Assembly: GCF_009834185.1 (NCBI RefSeq)
Contig: NZ_CP047173.1
Coordinates: 1,391,725-1,455,724, forward strand
DNA from: Rathayibacter sp. VKM Ac-2760
Lineage (GTDB): Bacteria > Actinomycetota > Actinomycetes > Actinomycetales > Microbacteriaceae
Length of the DNA: 64,000 nucleotides
Direction of reading: 5' to 3'
Shown in pieces: positions 2,003-57,013 of the stretch. Under the pieces are notes generated by a model, which worked only from the letters and a program-made list of their open reading frames with translations, was not told the origin of the DNA and searched no databases. The translations under genes and the position numbers were made by a program. Each line of letters begins with the position of its first letter. The first letter of the stretch is position 1.

Positions 2003-2070
2003 GTCTCGCGAGATGCCACTTGTGCGCGCTTTTCACGGCGTGTCGCGGGCACAAGTGGCATCTCGCGGGT
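2003..2070. repeat. palindromic intergenic repeat, family 1 (copy 1); terminator-like hairpin downstream of the FAH gene
   Basis: CGCGAGATGCCACTTGTG ... CACAAGTGGCATCTCGCG inverted arms; same element recurs at 3999, 18134, 58521. Confidence 0.85.
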
Positions 2071-2164
2071 GGGGGTCAGGTGTCGCAGCGGCGGGTGCTT
2101 CACCGTGCTCCCCGGAGCTGTCAAGCGGAGACGCTCGGCGGGGGTGGAGTCGTAGCGTCGAAGC

Positions 2165-3943
2165 ATGAGCTCGCCCCGCACGACCCGCAGCACCGAGACC
2201 ACCGCCACGAAGAAGAGCACCACGAAGAAGAGCACCACGAAGACGTCCGCCACGAAGAAGATCACCACCGCGAAGTCCGCCATGGCGAAGAAGAGCACCG
2301 CGACGAAGAGCACCCGCAGCACCGTCGATCGCATCGCCCGCGAGGACTTCGGCTGGACGTCGCTGCTGCCGGGGCAGCGCGAGGCCATCGAGTCGGCCGC
2401 CGCAGGGCGGGACACGCTGCTCGTGCTCGCGACGGGCGGCGGCAAGTCCGCGGTGTACCAGATCGCCGGTGCCGAGCGCGGGGGCGTCGTCCTCGTCGTC
2501 TCTCCGCTCGTCGCGCTCCAGGCCGACCAGCTCGCCTCGATCGGGGCCGCGCCGGCCGCGCCGCCCGCCGTCGCCGTCAACTCCGCCCAGGGCACCGCCG
2601 CCGTCGCGCGGGCCTGGGAGCGCATCGACGAGGGCGGCCCGCTGTACGTGCTGCTCGCTCCGGAGCAGCTGGCCAAGGAGGAGAACGTCGCGCGCCTCGC
2701 TGCGGCCGGCGTCTCGCTCCTGGTCGTCGACGAGGCGCACTGCGTCTCCTCCTGGGGCCACGACTTCCGCCCGGACTACCTGCGGCTGAAGGACGTCCGC
2801 AGCGCGCTGGGCGATCCGCCCGTGCTCGCGATGACCGCGACCGCCTCCCGACCGGTGCGCGAGGAGATCATCGAGCGCCTCGGCATGACCGACCCCGAGG
2901 TGCAGGTGCACGGGGTCGACCGCCCCGAGATCCGCCTCGTGGTGCACCGCCACGAGAGCGAGAACGAGAAGCGCACGGCCGTCGCCGAGGAGGCCCGCAG
3001 CTGGACGGCTCCCGGGCTGGTCTACGTGGCCACGCGCAAGGAGACCGAGACCTACGCGGCGGAGATCGCCGCCGAGGGCCGCTCCGTCGCGGCGTACCAC
3101 GCGGGGCTCAAGACGAGCGAGCGGCGCGACGTGCACCGGCAGTGGCGCGACGGCGAGCTGGACGTCGTGGTCGCGACCTCCGCCTTCGGGATGGGGATCG
3201 ACCGCGGCGACGTGCGCTTCGTGCTGCACGCGACGACGTCCGAGTCGCTCGATGCGTACTACCAGGAGATCGGGCGCGCCGGTCGCGACAGCGAGCCCGC
3301 GACGGCCGCACTGCACTACCGGCTCGAGGACCTGGGACTGCGGCGCTTCTTCGCGAAGCGCCGGGTCGAGCCGGCCGCGCTGCGGGTGGTGTGGGCGGCC
3401 GTGTCCGACAGGCCGGGCGTGCAGGTCGACGAGCTGGCGGAGGCGCTGGGCAAGTCGCCGCGCACCGTCGCGCGGCTGGTCAACGACCTGGCCGAGGCCG
3501 ACCTGCTCGAGACCGAGGGCGGCCTGCGGGCCGTCAGCGACGCGAGCGGCGACGCCGCCGTGCGCGCGGTGAAGGAGGAGCTCGCCTCGCGCGAGCGGAT
3601 CGCCGAATCGCGGCTGTCGATGATGCGCGCCTACGCCGAGACCTCGCAGTGCCGGCGGCGCGTGCTGCTCGACTACTTCGGCGTCGAGGGCCCGGAGTGG
3701 TGCGGCAACTGCGACGGCTGCGAGCGGCACGAGGCACGGCAGGAGGCGGCACAGGACGCTCCCGCCGATGCTCCGCTGAGCGTGGACGAGACGGTCGAGC
3801 ACCGCGCATGGGGCGCCGGCACCGTGATGAGCGTGGAGGACGACCGCGCGACGATCTTCTTCGAGACGGAGGGCTACAAGGTGCTGTCGTTCGCGGCGCT
3901 GGAGTCCGGAGTGCTGCGGGAGCGGGAGGCCGTCTCGGCGTAG
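2165..3943 (+). CDS. recQ: RecQ-family ATP-dependent DNA helicase with Lys/Thr-rich N-terminal tail
   Basis: helicase motifs (GGGKS, VVDEAHCVSSWGHDFRPDY), RecQ Zn-finger CRRRVLLDYFG...CGNCDGC; N-terminal TTKKSTTKK low-complexity repeats. Confidence 0.9.
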   Translation: MSSPRTTRSTETTATKKSTTKKSTTKTSATKKITTAKSAMAKKSTATKSTRSTVDRIAREDFGWTSLLPGQREAIESAAAGRDTLLVLATGGGKSAVYQIAGAERGGVVLVVSPLVALQADQLASIGAAPAAPPAVAVNSAQGTAAVARAWERIDEGGPLYVLLAPEQLAKEENVARLAAAGVSLLVVDEAHCVSSWGHDFRPDYLRLKDVRSALGDPPVLAMTATASRPVREEIIERLGMTDPEVQVHGVDRPEIRLVVHRHESENEKRTAVAEEARSWTAPGLVYVATRKETETYAAEIAAEGRSVAAYHAGLKTSERRDVHRQWRDGELDVVVATSAFGMGIDRGDVRFVLHATTSESLDAYYQEIGRAGRDSEPATAALHYRLEDLGLRRFFAKRRVEPAALRVVWAAVSDRPGVQVDELAEALGKSPRTVARLVNDLAEADLLETEGGLRAVSDASGDAAVRAVKEELASRERIAESRLSMMRAYAETSQCRRRVLLDYFGVEGPEWCGNCDGCERHEARQEAAQDAPADAPLSVDETVEHRAWGAGTVMSVEDDRATIFFETEGYKVLSFAALESGVLREREAVSA

Positions 3944-3998
3944 AGGCGGGGTCTCGAGACGCCGTCCTGCGGACGGCTGCTCGACCGGCAAGGCCACT

Positions 3999-4061
3999 CC
4001 GCGAGATGCCACTTGTGAGCGGGCGACACGGCGTGTCGCGCTCACAAGTGGCATCTCGCGG
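3999..4061. repeat. palindromic intergenic repeat, family 1 (copy 2); between convergent recQ and DUF2795 gene
   Basis: perfect 23-bp arms CCGCGAGATGCCACTTGTGAGCG / CGCTCACAAGTGGCATCTCGCGG around a 17-nt loop that is itself palindromic (GCGACAC/GTGTCGC). Confidence 0.9.
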
Positions 4062-4068
4062 GAGGGGG

Positions 4069-4260
4069 TCAGGCCTGGGAGACGGCGGAGCTCACGTCGG
4101 TGGGCTTGTCGTAGTCGCCCTCGGGGATCGCGCGGAGGGCGTCGAGGACGTCGGCGCCGGCGCCCTGCTTCTCGGCGGCCTCGACGATGGTGTCCTTCGA
4201 GGCCGGGTAGTCGATCCCGGAGAGGTGCTTCTGGATCTCGATCGGGGTGGGTACAGCCAT
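4069..4260 (-). CDS. small DUF2795-like protein (63 aa)
   Basis: ORF MAVPTPIEIQKHLSGIDYPASKDTIVEAAEKQG...; last gene of a minus-strand run. Confidence 0.55.
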   Translation of the reverse strand: MAVPTPIEIQKHLSGIDYPASKDTIVEAAEKQGAGADVLDALRAIPEGDYDKPTDVSSAVSQA

Positions 4261-4325
4261 GGTGCTGTCCTTTCGTGGTGGTGCGGGGAGTGCTCCTCGG
4301 CGAGGAGCACGACGGAGCGAGCCGC

Positions 4326-5801
4326 TCAGGGCGTCGACGACGAGCGGATGCGCTGGACCATCTCGCTCGTGGAGTGCTCGGAGACGTAGCCCACCGTGGT
4401 GACGGTGCCGCCGTAGGAGCGGACGACCACCGCCTCCGCGAGCATGTCGGGGGCGTAGTCGCCGCCCTTCACGTAGACGTCGGGCCGCACGCGCTCGAGC
4501 AGCGGGATCGGGGTGTCGCCGCTGAACAGGGTGACGTAGTCGACGCAGCCCAGCTCGGCGATCACGCCCGCGCGGTCGCCCTCGGGGTTGATCGGGCGGC
4601 CCTCGCCCTTCAGCCGGCGCACCGAGTCGTCGTCGTTGACCGCGACGACCAGCACGTCGCCGAGCTCGCGCGCCTGGCGGAGGTAGGCGGTGTGGCCGCG
4701 GTGCAGCACGTCGAAGCAGCCGTTGGTGAAGACGATGCGGCGGCCGCGACGGGCCTGCTCGGCGAGCACCTCGACGAGGCCGTCCTCGCCGAGCACCACG
4801 GCGCCGGGGGCGGCGAGCGAGGCGAGCAGATCGTCCGCGGTGCAGACGGAGGTGCCGGGGCGCTGGACGACGACGTCGGCCGCGGCCTGCGCCAGGTCGA
4901 CGGCGGTCGCGAGCGAGCGGCCGGCGGCGAGGGCGAGAGTCGCGGTGGCGGCGAAGGTGTCGCCGGCTCCGGAGGCCTGCTTCTCCTCCGCGGGCTGGGC
5001 GAAGGTGCGGCTGACCGTGCCGTCGGCGTCGAGCGCGGTCGAGCCGTCGCGGTCGAGAGTGACCACGACGTGCCGGGCGCCGGAGCGCTCGCGCAGGCGG
5101 CCAGCCGCGGCGCGGACGGCGGCGGCGCGCTCGGCGCCGCGGCCGAGCGGAGTGCCGAGGAGGCGCTCCGCCTCCTTCGCGTTCGGGGTGACCAGGTCGG
5201 GCGCCGCGAAGGCCCAGTCGGCGAGCTCGTGCGCATCGATCACGAGGAGTCCGGGGCGCTGCACGGCGAGCACGCGCTCGATCGCGGCGCGGAGGATCCC
5301 GGAACCGTAGTCGCAGACGAGCACGGCGTCGGCGCCGTCGGCCGCGCGGACGGCGGCCTCGGCGAGCTCGGTCAGCTCGGGGTCGGACGGGCGGTGCGGA
5401 CCGGAGTCGACGCGCAGCATCACGCTGTCGCCGCCGACGACGCGGGTCTTGATCGTGGTCGAGGCGTCGCTCCGGACGATCGCGCCGGTGTCCAGGCCGG
5501 CGCGCTCGAGCGCGGCGAGGAGGCGGTCGCCCTCGGCGTCGCGGCCGGCGACCCCGACCGTGCGCACCTCGGCGCCGAGCGCCCGCAGGTTCGCCGCGGT
5601 GTTGGCCGCACCGCCGGCGACATCGACGACGTCCTCGAGGCGCAGCACGGGCGCGGGCGCCTCGCGGGTGACCCGCTCGGCCTCGCCGAGCCACCAGGAG
5701 TCGAGGATGAGGTCGCCGACGACGGCGACGACCGGCGGCCGCTCGCGCACGTGCGCGACCAGCGCGCTCGCCCGCTGCAGCGCGGAGCCCTCGAGGCTCA
5801 T
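4326..5801 (-). CDS. hldE: bifunctional D-beta-D-heptose 7-phosphate kinase / D-beta-D-heptose 1-phosphate adenylyltransferase
   Basis: N-terminal pfkB kinase domain (GAGDTF) plus C-terminal cytidylyltransferase domain (FTNGCFDVLHRGH...RRLKG); ATGA overlap with upstream ALDH. Confidence 0.88.
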   Translation of the reverse strand: MSLEGSALQRASALVAHVRERPPVVAVVGDLILDSWWLGEAERVTREAPAPVLRLEDVVDVAGGAANTAANLRALGAEVRTVGVAGRDAEGDRLLAALERAGLDTGAIVRSDASTTIKTRVVGGDSVMLRVDSGPHRPSDPELTELAEAAVRAADGADAVLVCDYGSGILRAAIERVLAVQRPGLLVIDAHELADWAFAAPDLVTPNAKEAERLLGTPLGRGAERAAAVRAAAGRLRERSGARHVVVTLDRDGSTALDADGTVSRTFAQPAEEKQASGAGDTFAATATLALAAGRSLATAVDLAQAAADVVVQRPGTSVCTADDLLASLAAPGAVVLGEDGLVEVLAEQARRGRRIVFTNGCFDVLHRGHTAYLRQARELGDVLVVAVNDDDSVRRLKGEGRPINPEGDRAGVIAELGCVDYVTLFSGDTPIPLLERVRPDVYVKGGDYAPDMLAEAVVVRSYGGTVTTVGYVSEHSTSEMVQRIRSSSTP

Positions 5802-7240
5802 CGCGCGCCGCCGGGCAGGACGGGGAGGCCGAAGTGCACGACCGTGGTCGTGGTCATCTCGTCGAGCAGCTCCGGGCCGTAGCCGAAGCCCGAGCCGCTG
5901 GTGCCGCGCGGCTGCGCGCTGCCGCCGGGGGCGCCGCCGAAGACGCCGTTGATCTTGACGGTGCCGACGGGGAGGGTCGCCGCGGCGCGGTGCGCGTGCT
6001 CCATGTCGGCGGTGAGCACGGTGGCTGCGAGGCCGTAGGGGCCGGCGGCGGCGCGGGTGAGCGCCTCGTCGAAGGAGTCGACGACGAGGATCGGGGCGAC
6101 GGGGCCGAAGGTCTCCTCGGTCATCACCAGCATCTCGTCGGTGCAGTCGGCGAGGACGGTAGCGGGGTAGAAGGTGCCGTCGCCGGGGGTGCCGCCGGTG
6201 AGGGCGCGGGCGCCGTCGGCGACGGCGGCGGAGACGTGCTCGTGCACGGCGTCGCGCATCCGCTCGTCGACCAGGCGGGGGAGGGGGCCGGCGCTCCAGC
6301 GCTCGGCCTCGGCGACCAGGGCGGCGGTGAAGTCCTCGGCGACGTCGCGGTGCAGGTAGATCCGCTCGACGGAGGTGCAGATCTGGCCCGCGTTGGCGAA
6401 GGCGCCGAGGGCGGCCTGCTCGGCGGCCCAGACCGGGTCGACGTCGCGGTCGACGACGAGCGCGTCGTTGCCGCCGTTCTCGAGGATGGTGTGCGCGCCG
6501 GTGACGGCGGCGATGCGGGCGAGGGCGCGGCCGGTGGCGGTCGAGCCGACGTGCGCGAGGACGTCGACGCCCTCGGTGCGGGCGAGGGCGTCGCCCACGG
6601 CGCCGTCGCCCTCGACCAGGGTCAGCACGCCCTCGGGGAGCGCCTCGGCGAGGATCGAGGTGAAGAGCGCGCCGGTGCCGGGGCTGCGCTCGCTGGGCTT
6701 GTGCACGACGACGTCGCCGGAGACGATCGCGGCGCCGAGCATCCCGGCGGCGACGGCGACCGGGTCGTTCCAGGGGGTGAGCGCGAGGACGACTCCGCGC
6801 GGGTGCGGCAGGGCGAGGTCGACGTTCAGGGCGCCGCCGCGCAGGCTCCTGCCGCGGTGCAGCGGGCCGAGCTCGGCGTACTGCAGCAGGGTGTCGACGC
6901 CGGCGCGGACGCCGCCGAGGGCGTCGCCGGCGGGCTTGCCGGTCTCCTCGGTGTTGAGGTCGGCGAGCTCCTGCTCGCGGGCGGCCACAGCGTGGGCGGC
7001 GGCGCGCAGCAGGGCGCCGCGCTCGGCGGGAGCGGTGGCGGCCCAGGTGGGGAAGGCGGCGCGGGCGCGGGAGACGGCGTCGGCGGCGAGGTCGGCGGGG
7101 GCGCCGGTGGTGCCGGCGGCGGGGGTCGCGGTGTCGATGGTCACGGTCACCTCTCGGTCGGAGGCGTCCGCAGGGGTCGCGGACGCTGATGCCCTCGTCC
7201 GATACCCGCGCGGCGGCGGCTCAAACGGATGGCTCGTCAC
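5798..7240 (-). CDS. aldehyde dehydrogenase family protein (start probably internal to this ORF)
   Basis: ALDH motifs (ENGGNDALVV, FANAGQICTSVER, EETFGPV); first in-frame start overlaps a palindromic repeat so true start uncertain. Confidence 0.8.
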   Translation of the reverse strand: MTSHPFEPPPRGYRTRASASATPADASDREVTVTIDTATPAAGTTGAPADLAADAVSRARAAFPTWAATAPAERGALLRAAAHAVAAREQELADLNTEETGKPAGDALGGVRAGVDTLLQYAELGPLHRGRSLRGGALNVDLALPHPRGVVLALTPWNDPVAVAAGMLGAAIVSGDVVVHKPSERSPGTGALFTSILAEALPEGVLTLVEGDGAVGDALARTEGVDVLAHVGSTATGRALARIAAVTGAHTILENGGNDALVVDRDVDPVWAAEQAALGAFANAGQICTSVERIYLHRDVAEDFTAALVAEAERWSAGPLPRLVDERMRDAVHEHVSAAVADGARALTGGTPGDGTFYPATVLADCTDEMLVMTEETFGPVAPILVVDSFDEALTRAAAGPYGLAATVLTADMEHAHRAAATLPVGTVKINGVFGGAPGGSAQPRGTSGSGFGYGPELLDEMTTTTVVHFGLPVLPGGAR

Positions 7241-7305
7241 AACATCAGCTGAGAAGGCGACTCATCGCCGATGAGCGATGAGCCCCCGATTCAGCTGATG
7301 TTCTG
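7238..7305. repeat. palindromic intergenic repeat, family 2 (copy A)
   Basis: CACAACATCAGCTGAGA ... TTCAGCTGATGTTCTG terminal inverted repeats between GNAT-AIRS gene end and ALDH. Confidence 0.8.
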
Positions 7306-15385: not shown

Positions 15386-16800
15386 TGCGCCGCTCGTTCT
15401 CGCGCTGCTTCTCGGCGCTCGCCGCGGAGGATCCCGAGCGGGTCGTGGTCGTCGCGGACGACGCGACGCTCACCGCGGGCGCCCTGGACCGGGCCTCGAA
15501 CCGGCTCGCGCGCGCCTACGCGGCGCGGGGCGTCACTCCGGACTCGCTCGTCGCGGTCTCGCTGCCGAACTCGGCCGAGCTGGTGCTGGCCTGCGCCGCG
15601 ATCTGGAAGGCGGGCGCGACGCCGCAGCCGCTCTCGCGCGGGCTCTCGGCGCGGGAGCTCGCCGAGGTCGGCGCGCTCGGGCGGCCCACGCTGAGCGTCG
15701 GCGTCGAGCTGGAGGGCGTGCCGTTCGTCCCCGCCGGCTTCGAGCCCGACCCGGCGCTGCCGGACGACGAGCTGCCGGATCTCCGGGCGGCGTCGTGGAA
15801 GGCGCCCGCCTCCTCCGGCAGCACCGGTCGGCCGAAGATCGTTCTCGCGGCGGCTCCCGCGCTGATGGACCCGACGCAGCCGGTCGCGGCCTTCCTGCCG
15901 CGGGAGGGGGTGCAGCTCGTGGCCGGGCCGCTCACCCACTCCGCGACCTTCACCTACGCGTTCCGCGGGCTCCTGACCGGGCAGCGGCTGGTGATCCTGC
16001 CGCGCTTCGACGAGGCGCGGGTGCTCGCCGCGATCGCGGCGCACCGGGTGACCTGGGCGCTGCTGGTGCCGACGATGATCCACCGGCTGCTGCGGACGCC
16101 CGCGCACCGGGACGCGGACGTGTCGTCGCTCGAGACGGTGCTGCACCTGGGCTCGCCGTGCCCGCCCGCGGACAAGCGCGCGCTGATCGACTGGGTCGGG
16201 GCGGAGAAGGTGGTCGAGGTCTACGCGGGCAGCGAGTCGAACGGGCTGACGATGATCCGCGGCGACGAGTGGCTGGAGCGGCCCGGCAGTGTCGGCCGGC
16301 CGATCGGCGGCACGGAGCTTCGGGTGCTGCGCCCGGACGGGACGGAGTGCGCGGTCGGTGAGCCGGGGCGGGTCTGGCTGAAGCGCGGCGAGCCGACCTA
16401 CCGCTACCTCGGCGGGGAGTCGAAGCGGACGGAGGACGGCTGGGACACGCTCGGCGACGTCGGCTCGGTCGACGCCGACGGCTACCTGACCGTGCTCGAC
16501 CGGGCCGACGACCTGATCCTGCGCGGCGGGGTGAACGTCTACCCGGCGGAGATCGAGCGGGTGCTGGAGGAGCACCCGGCGGTGCGCGGGGCGGTCGCGT
16601 ACGGCGTCCCGGATGCGGAGCTGGGCCAGGCGATCGAGGCGGTGGTCGACATCGCGGACGCCGCAGTGACGGCGGAGGAGCTGCTCGCCTTCGCGCGCGA
16701 GCACCTCGGCTCACGCGCGCCGCGGGCGCTGCGGCTCCAGCGCTCGCCGCTGCGCGACGACGCGGGCAAGGTGCGGCGCGCGGCGCTCGCGGACGACTGA
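15385..16800 (+). CDS. AMP-dependent synthetase/ligase (adenylate-forming enzyme)
   Basis: ATGA overlap with GT; motifs SSGSTGRPK, YAGSE, GWDTLGDVG, ILRGGVNVYP. Confidence 0.85.
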   Translation: MRRSFSRCFSALAAEDPERVVVVADDATLTAGALDRASNRLARAYAARGVTPDSLVAVSLPNSAELVLACAAIWKAGATPQPLSRGLSARELAEVGALGRPTLSVGVELEGVPFVPAGFEPDPALPDDELPDLRAASWKAPASSGSTGRPKIVLAAAPALMDPTQPVAAFLPREGVQLVAGPLTHSATFTYAFRGLLTGQRLVILPRFDEARVLAAIAAHRVTWALLVPTMIHRLLRTPAHRDADVSSLETVLHLGSPCPPADKRALIDWVGAEKVVEVYAGSESNGLTMIRGDEWLERPGSVGRPIGGTELRVLRPDGTECAVGEPGRVWLKRGEPTYRYLGGESKRTEDGWDTLGDVGSVDADGYLTVLDRADDLILRGGVNVYPAEIERVLEEHPAVRGAVAYGVPDAELGQAIEAVVDIADAAVTAEELLAFAREHLGSRAPRALRLQRSPLRDDAGKVRRAALADD

Positions 16801-16848: not shown

Positions 16849-16919
16849 GCACAACATCAGCTGAGAGGTGGGTCCCTCCCCCCACAGCGGAGGCCCTCCC
16901 TTCTCAGCTGATGTTGTGC
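16849..16919. repeat. palindromic intergenic repeat, family 2 (copy B)
   Basis: GCACAACATCAGCTGAGA ... TCTCAGCTGATGTTGTGC. Confidence 0.85.
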
Positions 16920-17028
16920 GGGGCTCGACGGCCGTCTCCGGTTTCGGAACGCCCCGGACGGGGAAGTGGAGGAGTGCCCCTTCCCCGGAGTCGTCCCGCG
17001 CGGCTCCGCAGCACCGAGAGGAACCCCC

Positions 17029-18111
17029 GTGGTCGCCATCGCCCCGCTCCGAGACCGCTTCGACGGAGTCGAGAGGATCGCCGTGCTCCGCGGTGGCGGA
17101 CTCGGCGATCTGCTCTTCGCGCTGCCCGCCGTGGACGCGCTCGCCGCCGCGTACCCGGGCGCCGAGATCACCCTGCTCGGCACTCCGGCGCACCGCGTGC
17201 TGATCGAGGGCAGCGACGCGCCCGTGGCGGGCGTCGAGGTGCTGCCGGTGGCGCAGGGTGTGCGCGACGGCGACGGGGAGGACGAGCGGATCGTCGAGGA
17301 CTTCACGGCCCGGATGCGCGCCCGGCGCTTCGACCTCGCGGTGCAGCTGCACGGCGGCGGGCGCTTCTCCAACCCGTTCCTGCTACGGCTCGGCGCGCGG
17401 CACACGATCGGCACGCGCACCGACGACGCGGCGGACCTGGAGCGCACCATCCCCTACGTCTATTACCAGCACGAGATGCTGCGCGCGCTCGAGGTCGTCG
17501 GGCTCGCGGGCGCGCCGGCGGTGCGGCTGGAGCCGTCGCTGCAGGTCGACCCGGAGCGCCGCGACCGGCTCGCCGCGGTGCTGCCCGACGGCGGACCGCT
17601 GGTGCTGATCCACCCGGGGGCGACGGACGTGCGGCGGCGCTGGGCGAGCGCGTCCTTCGCCGAGGTGGCGCGGGCGCTGCTGGCGGACGGGGCGCGCGTG
17701 CTCGTGGTCGGCGACGCCTCCGACGTGCCCGCCGCCGACGCGATCGTCGCGGGCGCGCCGGGCGCCGTGTCGTGGGCCGGCGCGGTCGAGCTGCCGGACC
17801 TCGCTCCGCTGCTCTCGCTCGCCGACCTCGTGCTCGGCAACGACAGCGGACCGCGGCACCTCGCAGCGGCGGTCGGGGCGCCCACGGTCGGCGTCTTCTG
17901 GGTGGGCAACGCGATCAACGCCCAGCCCCTCGGCCGCCAGCGCCACCGCGTCCAGCTGAGCTGGACCACCCGCTGCCCGGTCTGCGGCATCGACGTCACG
18001 CAGGTCGGCTGGACCGCCCCGCGCTGCGAGCACGAGCTGTCCTTCGTCGACGACGTCCCCGTCTCCCGCGTCCTGGAGGACGCCCGAGCCGTCCTCGCCT
18101 CGACCAGCTGA
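17029..18111 (+). CDS. glycosyltransferase family 9 (heptosyltransferase-like) 1
   Basis: GTG start after GAGAGGAA; C-terminal GNDSGPRHLAAAVGAPTVGVF motif typical of GT9. Confidence 0.8.
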   Translation: MVAIAPLRDRFDGVERIAVLRGGGLGDLLFALPAVDALAAAYPGAEITLLGTPAHRVLIEGSDAPVAGVEVLPVAQGVRDGDGEDERIVEDFTARMRARRFDLAVQLHGGGRFSNPFLLRLGARHTIGTRTDDAADLERTIPYVYYQHEMLRALEVVGLAGAPAVRLEPSLQVDPERRDRLAAVLPDGGPLVLIHPGATDVRRRWASASFAEVARALLADGARVLVVGDASDVPAADAIVAGAPGAVSWAGAVELPDLAPLLSLADLVLGNDSGPRHLAAAVGAPTVGVFWVGNAINAQPLGRQRHRVQLSWTTRCPVCGIDVTQVGWTAPRCEHELSFVDDVPVSRVLEDARAVLASTS

Positions 18112-18133: not shown

Positions 18134-18196
18134 CCGCGAGATGCCACTTATGAGCGGCGACACCGGCGTGTCGCGCTCATAAGTGGCATCTCGCGG
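18134..18196. repeat. palindromic intergenic repeat, family 1 (copy 3) between convergent genes
   Basis: CCGCGAGATGCCACTTATGAGCG...CGCTCATAAGTGGCATCTCGCGG; G->A change in left arm matched by C->T in right arm. Confidence 0.9.
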
Positions 18197-18243: not shown

Positions 18244-18948
18244 TCACGGCCAGGAGGGCTCCTCCTCGTGGGTGATGACGAGCTCGCGGACCTCGCAACC
18301 GCGGGGCTGGCCGAGGACGAACATCACGGCGTTCGCGACGTTCTCCGGGTCGTTGAGGAGCGCGTCGGGGCCCGGCTTGTACTGGGCGTCGCGGTCGTCG
18401 AAGAAGCGGGTCTTCATGCCGGAGGGGATCAGGGTGGTGACGCCGATCTCGCCCTTGGTCTCGGCCGCGAGGGCGCGGGTGAAGCCGAGCACGCCGAATT
18501 TCGACGCGCAGTAGGCGGTCGCGTCCGAGACGGCCTTGATCGCGAGCGAGGACGCGACGGTGACGACGCGGCCGTGGGTCTCCGTCAGGAACGGCAGCGC
18601 GGCGCGGACGACAGCGGCGGTGCCGAGCAGGTTGACCGAGATCACGCGCTCCCACTCCTCCGGGTCGACGTCGACGAGGCGGCCGCAGCGGTCGATGCCG
18701 GCCGCGGTGACGACGGCGTCGAGTCCGCCGTGCTCGTGGGCGATCTCGACGACCGCCTTCTCGGCCTCGCGGGTCTTCGCGACGTCCACCTGGTAGGCGG
18801 CGACGCCCTCCTGCACGTTCGACACGTCGCGGTCGAGGACGATCGGCGTGCCGCCCGCGGCCGCGACGGCAGCGGCGACGGCGGCTCCGAGTCCGGAGGC
18901 GCCTCCGGTGATCAGGACGCGGCCGATGGGGGTGGGGGTGGTGGTCAT
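18244..18948 (-). CDS. SDR family oxidoreductase
   Basis: TGGASGLG cofactor motif, YxxxK (YCASK). Confidence 0.85.
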   Translation of the reverse strand: MTTTPTPIGRVLITGGASGLGAAVAAAVAAAGGTPIVLDRDVSNVQEGVAAYQVDVAKTREAEKAVVEIAHEHGGLDAVVTAAGIDRCGRLVDVDPEEWERVISVNLLGTAAVVRAALPFLTETHGRVVTVASSLAIKAVSDATAYCASKFGVLGFTRALAAETKGEIGVTTLIPSGMKTRFFDDRDAQYKPGPDALLNDPENVANAVMFVLGQPRGCEVRELVITHEEEPSWP

Positions 18949-19020
18949 GGGTGTCCCTTCCAGGATCCTCGGCGCCGGCGAGCGGGCGCGGTGGGTGGTG
19001 GTCGGCCGGAGCCGACGCGG

Positions 19021-37569: not shown

Positions 37570-37638
37570 CACGACGTCAGCTGAGGCACCGGCTCAACGC
37601 CGATGGTGGATGACGAGCGGTCTCAGCTGACGTCGTGC
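37570..37638. repeat. palindromic intergenic repeat, family 2 (copy D)
   Basis: GCACGACGTCAGCTGAGG ... TCTCAGCTGACGTCGTGC. Confidence 0.8.
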
Positions 37639-46024: not shown

Positions 46025-46094
46025 GACAGAACATCAGCCGGGAGCGGACCTCCTCCACCATCGTGGACGAGGTCGCTTCTCAGCTGATCTTGTG
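46025..46094. repeat. palindromic intergenic repeat, family 2 (copy E) between convergent genes
   Basis: GACAGAACATCAGCCGGGAG ... CTTCTCAGCTGATCTTGTG with internal CCACCATCGTGGACG core. Confidence 0.75.
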
Positions 46095-47095: not shown

Positions 47096-47227
47096 GCCGC
47101 GATGCTACGCCGCGCGCGTCCGGCGGCCCTCCGTTCGATCTGCAGGCGGTCCGGGCCGTCGCGCGACCGGACGCACGGCGGAGGGCCCTTTCCCGGCGGG
47201 ATCGCCTGCAGATCGGACGGCGGCCGC

Positions 47228-48007
47228 TCAGGCGTGCTCGGCGAGGAAGGCGAGCACCGCGTCCTTGAACGCGCGTGCCGGAACCGTGCTGGTGTGGTCG
47301 CGGCCCGGGACGCTGACGAAGCGCGCCCCCGCCTCCTCCGCCAGCCGCGCCCCGCCGGGTGCGATGGGGTCGGCGCCGCCGGTCACCATCAGGGTCGGCA
47401 GTGCCGGGTGCACCCCGAGCTCCGGATGCGCCCCGCCGCGGACGCCGTCCGCCACCGCCACCAGCGCGGCGAGGTCGTTGCCGGCCACGCCCTCCGCCAT
47501 GCCGATGAACGCGCGGGTGAAGCCGTCGTCGATCTCGCCGCCGTCTGCCACCCGCGCCCGCGCCGCCGCCGCGTCGAAGTGCCGGAGCGGCTCGCCCACG
47601 GTGAGCCCGCCGAGGCTGAGGGTCGCCAGCAGCTCCGGGCGCTCGAGTCCGAGCACCCAGCCCATCCGCGCGCCGAGCGAGTAGCCCAGGTAGTGCGGAG
47701 CGATCAGGTCGTAGGTCTCGATCACCCGGACGATGTCGGCCACCATCGGATCGACCCCGTAGGCGCCGGCCCGGTGCGGCTTCTCGCTGGCCCCGTGCCC
47801 GCGCTGGTCGAGCGCCACCACGCGGTAGCCCGCGCGGCTCAGCGTCCGCAGCCAGCCCGCCGTCTCCCAGTTCAGCACCGCGTTCGACGCGAAGCCGTGC
47901 ACCGCCAGCACGGTCGGAGCCCCCTCGTCGCCGACCGCGTAGGTCGCGATCCGCGTCCCGTCGTCGGCGACCACGGACACGGGCGGGGGGAAGGCGATCG
48001 GCGTCAC
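47228..48007 (-). CDS. alpha/beta hydrolase
   Basis: HGF...N, GYSLGA nucleophile elbow. Confidence 0.75.
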   Translation of the reverse strand: MTPIAFPPPVSVVADDGTRIATYAVGDEGAPTVLAVHGFASNAVLNWETAGWLRTLSRAGYRVVALDQRGHGASEKPHRAGAYGVDPMVADIVRVIETYDLIAPHYLGYSLGARMGWVLGLERPELLATLSLGGLTVGEPLRHFDAAAARARVADGGEIDDGFTRAFIGMAEGVAGNDLAALVAVADGVRGGAHPELGVHPALPTLMVTGGADPIAPGGARLAEEAGARFVSVPGRDHTSTVPARAFKDAVLAFLAEHA

Positions 48008-56648: not shown

Positions 56649-57013
56649 CGCGCGGCGTCCGGGGTCAGGAGGCGCCGCCGCGGCTGTCGTGGCCGGGGTC
56701 GAACGCGACGGGGGAGAGCCCGTCGCTCCGGATCGCGAGCGCGAGCGGGAGGGCGAGCGCGGTGAGCAGGACGGCGGTGAGGAGGGTGAGCAGGAGGAGC
56801 ATGAGGGGTCCGATCTCGAGGTGATGCTCCGAGAGTGGACCCGTCCACTTGTCCGCGGGGCTCGAGGAGCAGTCCACTTCGGCCGGTCCGGTCCATCCCC
56901 GTCCGGCCGCGCCAAGGTGGACTGCTCGGCTGGAGCCCCGGCGTAGGCTGGCCCCGCAGTCCGCGGACCCCCTGCACCCTTCGGGGCCGCACGACGACAG
57001 CGATGGAGCTGAC

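What the first reader, a model, noticed from the sequence alone, without database searches (positions are those of the whole stretch)
3999..4061. Family of about 63-bp near-perfect palindromic intergenic repeats (4 copies), always at 3' ends of genes
Copies lie at 2003-2070, 3999-4061, 18134-18196 and 58521-58583. They share the 23-bp arms CCGCGAGATGCCACTTGTGAGCG and their reverse complement. The 17-nt spacer is itself palindromic.

Three copies sit between convergent gene pairs and one sits downstream of a co-oriented gene. This is the position expected of bidirectional intrinsic terminators. GC-rich Actinobacteria often have no U-tract. They may also be REP/MITE-like elements. They produce spurious ORF-end peptides such as REMPLVS...VASRG.
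Basis: seen in the sequence. Interest (0 to 1): 0.5.

Follow-up and report, generated by a model that had tools for sequence, protein, structure and literature searches.

The report
New palindromic repeat family after genes
The four palindromes are real copies of an apparently undescribed dispersed repeat family of Rathayibacter and related Microbacteriaceae that sits just after stop codons where other genes carry an ordinary hairpin, so it resembles the REP elements of E. coli or the TRIT motif of mycobacteria more than a classical terminator.

Summary
A capped genome scan found the family in at least 17 Microbacteriaceae genomes (Rathayibacter, Naasia, Parafrigoribacterium).

Each copy has invariant 15-nt outer arms, a variable 7-nt inner stem that covaries, an asymmetric centre and an almost fixed length. 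Pairing appears to be kept at the DNA level, because there is no excess of G.U over A.C pairs.

Four results point to a replicating or homogenised repeat of REP/REPIN type:
- each genome has its own master sequence;
- orthologous sites differ in presence or absence;
- centres are flipped between orthologues;
- there are no target-site duplications.

No transposase was found.

Copies lie a median 17 nt after stop codons. They are the only hairpin in 75-97-nt convergent intergenic regions, where element-free regions carry unique hairpins. No U-tract follows. Instead the flanks are C-rich on the 5' side and G-rich on the 3' side, and this skew reaches synonymous sites of the upstream genes. That pattern resembles a Rho-loading site.

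I read the element as a self-propagating 3'-end hairpin module, probably working with Rho. This function is inferred, not shown.

The parts
2006..2068 (.). Copy 1, 63-nt palindrome. It starts 7 nt after the TGA of the FAA hydrolase gene (1214-1999) and lies before the RecQ-like gene (2165-3943). The flank reads TGACCCGTC on the left and GGTGGGGGTCA on the right.
   Evidence: The orthologous site is occupied in L111 and L121. In R. tritici L099 it is empty and holds a plain hairpin, GCCCCTCC-GGCTT-GGAGGGGC-TTT.
3999..4061 (.). Copy 2, the flagged one. It has perfect 23-nt arms and lies between the RecQ-like gene (stop at 3943) and the DUF2795 gene (4069-4263, minus strand). That gene's stop codon is 7 nt after the element.
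   Evidence: The orthologous site is occupied in L001, L111 and L121.
3999..4014 (+). Left outer arm of copy 2: C plus CGCGAGATGCCACTT. This is the invariant box of the family.
   Evidence: Position table from 118 oriented copies: 115-118 of 118 identical at every position of the 15-nt box (4000-4014) and 107 of 118 at the leading C (3999). Identity is 99% at 35 orthologous site pairs.
4015..4021 (+). Left inner stem of copy 2 (GTGAGCG). This 7-nt segment is variable and lineage-specific, and it covaries with 4039-4045.
4022..4038 (-). Centre or loop, 17 nt. It carries the asymmetric motif CGACACGCC, which reads on the minus strand in all four window copies. In copy 2 it is itself nearly palindromic.
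   Evidence: Its orientation is flipped between orthologues in about 9 of 35 site pairs.
4039..4061 (+). Right inner stem (CGCTCAC) followed by the right outer arm (AAGTGGCATCTCGCG plus G).
4062..4068 (+). G-rich 3' flank (GAGGGGG), running up to the TCA stop-codon complement of the DUF2795 gene.
18134..18196 (.). Copy 3, between the GT9 glycosyltransferase gene (16912-18111, plus strand) and the short-chain dehydrogenase gene (18244-19020, minus strand). Both arms carry the compensated variant ATGAGCG.
   Evidence: The orthologous site is occupied in L084 and in R. toxicus L081. In L081 the arms are identical, but the centre has diverged and is in the other orientation.
58531..58593 (.). Copy 4, 12 nt after the TAG of the Lyase_1/fumarase-C family gene (56825-58519). 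The convergent Ada-AlkA ORF (58497-60059, minus strand) reads through it.
   Evidence: The orthologous site in L053 carries two elements about 80 nt apart.

Best explanation
The four palindromes belong to a dispersed, chromosomal family of palindromic repeats. I found no description of it. It occurs in a clade of Microbacteriaceae that includes Rathayibacter, Naasia and Parafrigoribacterium. In kind it is REP/REPIN-like or TRIT-like.

**How it is maintained (inferred).** The family is propagated and homogenised at the DNA level by a sequence-specific factor that has not been identified. This factor would recognise the invariant 12-15-bp arm box, GAGATGCCACTT, at the foot of a 23-bp hairpin or cruciform. 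The inner stem and centre drift, flip and are overwritten lineage by lineage.

**What it does for the host (inferred).** The element is retained just downstream of stop codons, where it takes the place that a unique long hairpin holds at other gene ends. When transcribed from either strand it forms a very stable hairpin with no U-tract. That hairpin most likely defines and protects mRNA 3' ends. It probably works together with Rho, which could load on the C-rich, G-poor stretch of about 90 nt that precedes the element on both strands.

**Shown:** anatomy, distribution, conservation, covariation, gene context and flank composition.
**Inferred:** mobility mechanism, transcription, Rho dependence and RNA protection.
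For: **Distribution.**
- 151 paired copies were found, 146 of them exactly 61 nt from CGCGAG to CTCGCG.
- Density is about 40-60 copies per Mb in the window and in strains VKM Ac-2856 and Ac-2857.

**Conservation and pairing.**
- The arms are invariant, and stem positions 16-22/40-46 and 1-2/60-61 covary with 3-5 pair types each. Pairing is 78-98%, against 41-79% with shuffled partners.
- At 35 orthologous occupied site pairs, identity is 99% in the arms, 72% in the inner stem and 82% in the centre. The adjacent 30-nt flanks are 42% identical. The centre is flipped in about 9 pairs.
- G.U pairs do not outnumber A.C pairs when copies are oriented as the mRNA: 15 versus 21, p = 2e-5 against a 3:1 ratio.

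**Signs of replication or homogenisation.**
- Each genome has its own master inner sequence, surrounded by a cloud of mutational neighbours.
- Orthologous sites differ in presence or absence.
- There are no target-site duplications.

**Gene context.**
- Counts are 62 convergent, 52 tandem and 5 divergent, against a background of 109, 222 and 86 (chi-square p = 2e-15).
- The median distance from stop codon to core is 17 nt, interquartile range 9-25.
- Convergent intergenic regions with an element are 75-97 nt long. Only 10% hold another hairpin of -30 kcal/mol or stronger. Among element-free convergent regions the figure is 65%.
- In two orthologous sites another species has a unique hairpin instead of the element: L099 and L069.

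**Flank composition.**
- C>G skew rises from 0.10 at -90 to 0.53 at -15 to -1 on both sides.
- Within the last 20 codons the skew sits at codon position 3: C3 is 0.70-0.73 against 0.52 in controls, and G3 is 0.24 against 0.40.
- Genes followed by unique hairpins show no such skew.

**Published context.**
- Actinobacterial 3' ends map to long stems without U-tracts and score high for Rho dependence (PMC13613805).
- TRIT is a precedent for a sequence-conserved palindrome at gene termini (PMC3152330).
Against: - No transposase or other cognate protein was found. Adjacency analysis across genera gave nothing recurrent. Only about 1 Mb of sampled loci could be examined, not whole genomes.
- There are no transcript data, so termination, Rho dependence and RNA protection are all inferred.
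- The proximal 30 nt of flank skew is present even where the neighbouring gene's 5' end faces the element. Part of the skew therefore belongs to the element or its insertion site, not to a Rho-loading site.
- The skew is weaker in the Naasia subfamily, 0.24.
- The absence of a G.U excess shows that pairing is not maintained by RNA-level selection alone. This weakens any argument from structure conservation to RNA function.
- The near-fixed spacing between the two arm boxes (97% of copies) fits recognition of duplex DNA at least as well as recognition of a hairpin.
- Presence/absence polymorphism rests on only four orthologous sites.
Confidence: 0.6

Rival explanations
1. The elements are pure bidirectional intrinsic (factor-independent) terminators. 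In this reading each hairpin alone stops RNA polymerase coming from either side, and the sequence is conserved only because the RNA structure is selected.
For: - They lie just after stop codons and are enriched between convergent genes.
- The hairpins are very stable.
- The element is the only hairpin in its intergenic region.
Against: - There is no U-tract. The 3' flank is G/A-rich, which would give a strong rG:dC hybrid.
- Mycobacterial RNA polymerase did not terminate at hairpins without U-tracts in vitro (PMC3993855).
- Structure selection does not explain 15 invariant bases per arm across genera, a fixed length, or genome-specific master sequences.
- There is no G.U over A.C excess on the transcribed strand.
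Confidence: 0.1
2. The elements are selfish miniature transposons (MITEs) moved by a DDE transposase. They would have no host function and accumulate after genes only because insertions there are harmless.
For: - The arms look like terminal inverted repeats.
- Copy number differs between species, and orthologous sites differ in presence or absence.
- Genome-specific master sequences are present.
Against: - No target-site duplication of 2-5 nt appears at any boundary offset from 0 to 12.
- No full-length partner with the same ends was seen, and orphan arms are rare.
- No copies occur in plasmids, phages or IMG/VR contigs.
- Almost no decayed copies exist.
- Arms are 99% conserved at orthologous sites whose flanks have diverged.
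- The element replaces, rather than adds to, the local hairpin.
Confidence: 0.1
3. The elements are binding sites on duplex DNA for a dimeric or tetrameric protein. This could be a nucleoid, gyrase or topology factor, as proposed for BIME-type REP clusters, or a transcription roadblock placed between converging transcription units.
For: - Two 12-15-bp inverted boxes are invariant across genera.
- Their spacing is 31 bp in 146 of 151 copies, although the sequence between them turns over completely between Rathayibacter and Naasia.
- The symmetry is kept at the DNA level.
Against: - The inner 7-nt stems covary. A duplex-binding protein would not need this.
- No candidate protein is known.
- This reading does not by itself explain the genome-specific masters or the C>G flank skew.
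- It is not exclusive of the best explanation.
Confidence: 0.15
4. The elements are DNA-uptake-type sequences, as in Neisseria or Haemophilus, where inverted pairs double as terminators.
For: A short motif conserved within a bacterial family is found as inverted pairs after genes.
Against: - The box almost never occurs singly. There were 5 orphan arms in about 1 Mb, and 2 of them are degenerate full elements.
- The box was not seen inside genes as a single copy.
- From general knowledge, sequence-specific DNA uptake is not known in this group.
Confidence: 0.02

Closest known systems
REP / BIME elements of enterobacteria and REPINs of Pseudomonas, mobilised by RAYT tyrosine transposases
   Same: - They are short palindromic repeats, extragenic and in high copy number.
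- They lie mostly after genes and between convergent genes, and rarely between divergent ones.
- The stem foot is conserved while the tip varies.
- They lack target-site duplications.
- Occasional tandem clusters occur (L075 has three; L022 and L053 have two).
- Each genome has a master sequence with mutational neighbours.
- Copies persist at orthologous sites.
- Proposed roles include mRNA 3' protection and termination.
   Different: - There is no unpaired GTAG or CGTC tag.
- It is a single 63-nt hairpin that is almost perfectly symmetric, not a 20-40-nt imperfect palindrome or a pair of them.
- The arm box is identical across genera, whereas REPIN sequences differ between species.
- No RAYT was found; whole genomes could not be searched.
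- The host is an actinobacterium.
- The flanks are C-rich on the 5' side and G-rich on the 3' side.
TRIT, the 'Tuberculosis Rho-independent terminator' motif of Mycobacterium (RNIE paper, PMC3152330)
   Same: - It occurs in an actinobacterium.
- It is a palindromic hairpin conserved in both sequence and structure.
- It has about 150 copies per genome.
- Its position relative to stop codons is narrow, sometimes overlapping the end of the coding sequence.
- It is bidirectional by symmetry.
- Its authors also inferred an unknown factor that recognises the double-stranded motif.
   Different: - The taxon differs: TRIT is reported as restricted to Mycobacterium.
- I could not compare the sequences, because the TRIT model is not in Rfam.
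- TRITs overlapped few mapped 3' ends in M. tuberculosis Term-seq (bioRxiv 10.1101/2022.06.01.494293). The terminator label is therefore doubtful for TRIT as well.
Correia / NEMIS elements of Neisseria and similar MITEs (ERIC, RUP)
   Same: They are dispersed palindromic repeats that are co-transcribed with neighbouring genes and fold into long hairpins.
   Different: - Those elements are 100-160 bp long.
- They have terminal inverted repeats with TA or other target duplications.
- They have internal protein-binding sites.
- Here no target duplication is present, and the whole element is a single hairpin.
Rho-dependent terminators (a C-rich, G-poor loading site followed by a pause hairpin, as modelled by RhoTermPredict)
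   Same: A region of about 90 nt with C>G lies upstream of a strong hairpin, on both strands. It is achieved partly by synonymous G-to-C choice in the last 20-50 codons.
   Different: - Rho terminators are not known as sequence-defined, repeated cassettes.
- Rho dependence is untested here.
- The proximal skew is also present on sides that face a gene's 5' end.

Membership tests
REP (GTAG/CGTC-tagged) and REPIN-RAYT systems | Imperfect palindrome of 20-40 bp with an unpaired GTAG or CGTC tetranucleotide at one end (PMC3733652) | tested here: not met
   The ends are symmetric, C-CGCGAG...CTCGCG-G, and fully paired. There is no tag. The unit is 63 nt.
REP (GTAG/CGTC-tagged) and REPIN-RAYT systems | High copy number, extragenic location, mostly at gene 3' ends | tested here: met
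   The window has 4 copies in 64 kb. Two related genomes have about 40-50 per Mb.
REP (GTAG/CGTC-tagged) and REPIN-RAYT systems | Clusters of units (BIME-like arrays) | tested here: inconclusive
   Clusters are few. L075 has three units 31-33 nt apart. L022 and L053 have doublets 54-81 nt apart. Most copies are solitary.
REP (GTAG/CGTC-tagged) and REPIN-RAYT systems | A cognate single-copy Y1 (HUH) transposase gene flanked by the repeats | not testable with these tools
None was noticed among genes next to elements in about 1 Mb of loci.
MITE (non-autonomous DDE transposon) | Target-site duplication flanking the terminal inverted repeats | tested here: not met
   Direct repeats of 2-5 nt at offsets 0-12 are no commoner than with shuffled partners. 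The flanks are complementary in composition, not identical.
MITE (non-autonomous DDE transposon) | An autonomous insertion sequence with the same ends in the same genomes | tested here: inconclusive
   No widely spaced arm pairs or orphan arms next to transposase genes were found in the sampled loci. Whole genomes were not searched.
Canonical intrinsic (Rho-independent) terminator | GC-rich hairpin downstream of a stop codon | tested here: met
Canonical intrinsic (Rho-independent) terminator | U-tract of 7-9 nt immediately 3' of the hairpin | tested here: not met
   Positions +1 to +8 are 65-85% G and about 5% or less T, on both strands.
TRIT motif of Mycobacterium | Sequence-conserved palindromic hairpin in many copies, narrowly placed at gene termini | tested here: met
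   compared with the description in PMC3152330.
TRIT motif of Mycobacterium | Match to the TRIT covariance model or sequence | not testable with these tools
   No TRIT model is in Rfam. Rfam gave only sub-threshold generic hairpin (microRNA precursor) matches. TRIT is reported only in Mycobacterium.
Rho-dependent terminator | C-rich, G-poor stretch of about 80 nt upstream of the release or pause site | tested here: met
   Genes followed by unique hairpins lack it.
Rho-dependent terminator | 3' ends lost or read-through increased when Rho is inhibited | not testable with these tools
   No transcript data are available for these organisms.
DNA uptake sequences (DUS/USS) | Short motif abundant as single copies, including inside genes | tested here: not met
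   Only 5 orphan arms were found in about 1 Mb. Two of them are degenerate full elements and the others look like chance matches.

The most novel reading that the evidence does not exclude
The element is a mobile, sequence-defined, bidirectional terminator cassette. In this reading a palindrome is copied or overwritten by an unknown factor specific to Microbacteriaceae that recognises the invariant arm box. The host has then co-adapted around it by shifting synonymous codons of the neighbouring genes towards C, creating Rho-loading sites on both strands. It would be the first case in which Rho-dependent 3'-end formation is tied to a dispersed, self-propagating DNA repeat. It would also point to a new kind of REP-mobilising or REP-binding protein in Actinobacteria.
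Probability: 0.15. Interest if true: 0.75.

Novelty: new member of a known kind. Interest (0 to 1): 0.5.

Why it matters
**Transcript 3' ends in high-GC Actinobacteria.** How these ends are made is an open question, because hairpins are long, U-tracts are rare and Rho is thought to dominate. A family of about 150-250 nearly identical hairpins per genome, each placed 10-25 nt after a stop codon and each with C-rich approaches, is a natural replicated test set. One Term-seq experiment with and without bicyclomycin would read out all copies at once.

**A missing protein.** The arm box is invariant across genera while the interior turns over, which implies an unidentified sequence-specific protein. 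Finding it would extend the REP/RAYT paradigm, or an alternative to it, into Actinobacteria.

**Annotation.** The elements create spurious ORF starts and ends (MPLVS..., ...VASRG) and should be masked during annotation.

Tried and rejected
**Databases and literature**
- Rfam at gathering and at permissive thresholds gave only sub-threshold generic microRNA-hairpin matches.
- Literature searches by sequence string, taxon and repeat type found no description.
- Plasmid, phage and IMG/VR collections held no copy.

**Flanks and insertion site**
- I tested whether the C-rich and G-rich flanks are the two halves of a pre-existing terminator stem split by insertion. Own-flank complementarity barely exceeds other-copy complementarity: 6.25 versus 6.08 paired positions, and -17.9 versus -17.0 kcal/mol. 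The complementarity is therefore mostly compositional.
- Two of four empty sites do look like a C-tract, 5 nt and a G-tract, so the idea is not excluded.
- Target-site duplications were not found.

**Orientation of the centre**
- Relative to the upstream gene it is 20 versus 13, not significant.
- Relative to contig position or local GC skew it shows weak runs, Fisher p = 0.16.

**Cognate protein**
- A search for a gene recurrently next to elements across genera found nothing.
- A DUF559/MTES_1575 nuclease-like gene is flanked by two elements in four Rathayibacter species and three metagenome contigs. Only close orthologues could be retrieved, so the association cannot be told from shared ancestry.

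**Source organism**
- The DUF2795 protein is not on record.
- The FAA hydrolase is identical in GCA_004011135.1 CP028137.1, a related genome but not the same one.

Full report
**1. The observation**

Shuffled sequence gives 0.01 matches.

A profile built from 145 family members finds these four copies and nothing else in the window. As 85-nt RNAs they fold at -58 to -71 kcal/mol, with z-scores of -7 to -12.

The spacer is palindromic only in copies 2 and 3. Copy 3 carries a compensated change in both arms.

The neighbouring genes are ordinary housekeeping genes:
- FAA hydrolase
- a RecQ-like helicase
- DUF2795
- a family 9 glycosyltransferase
- a short-chain dehydrogenase
- a Lyase_1/fumarase-C family lyase
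- Ada-AlkA

**2. Distribution**

It returned 120 blocks of 8 kb from:
- ten Rathayibacter genomes
- four Naasia genomes
- Parafrigoribacterium soli
- Microbacteriaceae strain VKM Ac-2854
- an unnamed Actinomycetota metagenome-assembled genome

The window is 88-94% identical to Rathayibacter strains VKM Ac-2856 and Ac-2857. One of its proteins is identical in GCA_004011135.1, where copies 1 and 2 are also present.

No copy occurs in the plasmid, phage or IMG/VR collections. Rfam has no matching family. I found no paper describing the motif.

**3. Anatomy**

From 151 paired copies, 146 are exactly 61 nt from CGCGAG to CTCGCG. The parts, from 5' to 3', are as follows.

| Part | Sequence or length | Behaviour |
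|---|---|---|
| 5' flank | C/T-rich tract | compositional |
| Left outer arm | C + CGCGAGATGCCACTT | invariant |
| Left inner stem | 7 nt | variable, lineage-specific |
| Centre | 17 nt: CGACACGCCG then NGRAARG | asymmetric (Rathayibacter form) |
| Right inner stem | 7 nt | pairs with the left inner stem |
| Right outer arm | AAGTGGCATCTCGCG + G | invariant |
| 3' flank | G/A-rich tract | compositional |

In Naasia the interior is entirely different (TCCGTCCCTAT, then 9 nt, then ATAGGGACGGA). The boxes and the total length are the same.

Inner-stem positions pair in 78-98% of 132 distinct sequences, with three to five pair types per position. Shuffled partners give 41-79%. The outermost two pairs also covary.

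When copies in co-oriented contexts are read as the mRNA of the upstream gene, G.U pairs (15) do not exceed A.C mismatches (21). This excludes a 3:1 RNA-type tolerance at p = 2e-5. The palindrome is therefore kept symmetric at the DNA level. Structure conservation cannot by itself be read as selection on an RNA fold.

**4. Evolutionary behaviour**

At 35 orthologous occupied site pairs between species, with flanking-gene DNA 80-96% identical:
- the arms are 99% identical
- the inner stems are 72% identical
- the centre is 82% identical in its better orientation
- the adjacent 30-nt flanks are 42% identical
- the centre is inverted in about nine pairs, including one pair at 96% flank identity with a 17/17 match after flipping

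Inner stems often differ by concerted changes on both arms between close species.

Each genome has a preferred inner sequence:
- GTGCACG in Ac-2856 and Ac-2857
- ATGAGCG in Ac-2879
- GGGTACG or GAGTACG in R. tanaceti, Ac-2754, Leaf185 and R. iranicus
- CTGTACG in Ac-2854
- TCCGTCC in Naasia

In the two expanded genomes there is a master interior with 4-6 identical copies and a cloud of neighbours.

Four orthologous sites are occupied in one species and empty in another. Two of the empty sites carry an unrelated unique hairpin. One has CCCCCC-AGCTG-GCAG where the element would be.

One site has one element in the window and two in a sister species. There are no target-site duplications. Degenerate copies are rare: 2 in about 150.

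Together these results indicate copying, replacement or gene conversion among copies, with strong constraint on the arm box. This is the behaviour of REP/REPIN-type repeats. It does not fit a cut-and-paste MITE, and it does not fit independently evolving terminators.

**5. Position and local substitution for hairpins**

I used a simple gene caller based on GC content at codon position 3.

| Context | With element | All intergenic regions of at least 70 nt |
|---|---|---|
| Convergent | 62 | 109 |
| Tandem | 52 | 222 |
| Divergent | 5 | 86 |

The chi-square p-value is 2e-15. Twenty apparent intragenic cases are mostly over-extended starts that use the element's own ATG.

The stop codon is a median 17 nt from the core, interquartile range 9-25.

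Convergent intergenic regions with an element are tightly sized at 75-97 nt, median 92. After the element is removed, only 10% contain another hairpin of -30 kcal/mol or stronger. Among element-free convergent regions, 65% contain a unique strong hairpin.

The element therefore occupies the niche of the usual long 3' hairpin without a U-tract. Such hairpins are typical of Actinobacteria (PMC13613805).

**6. The flanks**

Read towards the element from either side, C>G skew climbs as follows.

| Distance from the core | C>G skew |
|---|---|
| beyond -100 | about 0 |
| around -90 | 0.10 |
| -75 to -46 | 0.16-0.17 |
| -45 to -16 | 0.24-0.28 |
| -15 to -1 | 0.53 |

In the last 20 codons of adjacent genes the shift is at codon position 3. 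C3 is 0.70-0.73 against 0.52-0.53 in controls, and G3 is 0.24-0.25 against 0.40-0.41. The effect fades by about 50 codons. Genes followed by unique hairpins show no skew.

In one orthologous triplet the two species with the element have C3/G3 of 20/14 and 21/12 over 40 codons. The species with a unique hairpin has 13/26. This is a single case.

The proximal 30 nt of skew is present whatever the orientation of the neighbour. It is weaker in Naasia. Flank pairs from the same copy are only marginally more complementary than flanks from different copies.

A synonymous shift towards C-rich, G-poor RNA over about 90 nt is what a Rho-loading site looks like in a 74% GC genome. I take this as the best available explanation, but part of the skew may reflect the insertion site or the element's own periphery.

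**7. Interpretation**

I commit to the following reading.

*DNA level.* This is a REP/REPIN-like or TRIT-like dispersed palindrome. Its invariant arm box is the recognition site of an unidentified factor that copies or homogenises it.

*Host level.* It serves as the 3'-end hairpin of the adjacent transcription units on both strands, most likely for Rho-assisted termination followed by protection against 3' exonucleases.

It is not a classical intrinsic terminator, because there is no U-tract and the only actinobacterial RNA polymerase tested needs one (PMC3993855). The closest published analogue is the mycobacterial TRIT motif. Its authors likewise inferred an unknown factor binding the conserved double-stranded motif (PMC3152330).

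The element fails the defining tag of the GTAG and CGTC REP super-families (PMC3733652). It also fails the target-duplication criterion of MITEs. I therefore file it as a new family of the same general kind, not as a member of either.

**8. Limits**
- No transcript data exist for these organisms.
- Whole genomes could not be scanned for a cognate transposase.
- Presence/absence rests on four sites.
- Gene calls are approximate.
- The genome scan was truncated, so the taxonomic range is a lower bound.

Noticed in passing
window 7238-7305 and 16850-16918; weaker matches at 37621-37635 and 46078-46092: This is a second, unrelated palindromic repeat family, with arms CACAACATCAGCTGAGA and TCTCAGCTGATGTTGTG around a variable centre. 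It has five arm matches against 0.01 expected by chance. One copy lies between the stop of the gene ending at 16800 and the GT9 gene, and so looks like another REP-like family.
   Followed up: partly
window 27354-28198: This is a tandem array of 9.2 copies of a 92-nt unit (87% matches). Each unit is built from inverted CGGCTCGC.../...GCGAGCCG hairpin modules. It lies between two divergent genes. Related arrays occur in L063 and L074, and single units sit next to gene ends in L099 and L093.
   Followed up: partly
window 3950-3995; L111 about 2990-3200 and 5250-5430; L121 6340-6640: A third short repeat, GGTCTCGATACGCC...CTACTCGACCAGC of about 45 nt, lies just left of copy 2. It is present once in the window and several times in tandem in sister genomes.
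   Followed up: no
window 58497-60059 (minus strand): The Ada-AlkA ORF has no stop before copy 4 and reads through it, so its last 30 or so codons are encoded by the repeat. In the L053 orthologue the ORF stops inside the element's centre. The repeat has therefore replaced the original C-terminus and stop codon.
   Followed up: partly
window 2079-2241 versus L111 4936-5783; window 4308-4326 versus L001 5470-6307 and L111 1850-2692: Two indels of about 0.6-0.85 kb lie next to copies 1 and 2. The window lacks a small minus-strand ORF that follows copy 1 in L111 and L121. It also lacks an approximately 840-nt segment beyond the DUF2795 gene that is present in L001 and L111.
   Followed up: no
L096 3395-4478; also L089, L042, L082, L123-L125: A 300-aa gene with a C-terminal DUF559/REase_MTES_1575 nuclease-like domain is bracketed by two elements in every orthologue retrieved: four Rathayibacter species and three metagenome contigs. 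This could be coincidence. It is the only nuclease-like gene seen in that arrangement, so it is a weak lead for a cognate protein.
   Followed up: partly
window 47108-47243: An inverted repeat with 45-nt arms (76% complementary) separated by 46 nt lies between the genes ending at 47104 and 47228. It is probably one of the unique long 3' hairpins.
   Followed up: no
L075 1478-1724: Three elements lie in tandem, 31-33 nt apart, in Rathayibacter VKM Ac-2857. This is the only BIME-like cluster seen.
   Followed up: no
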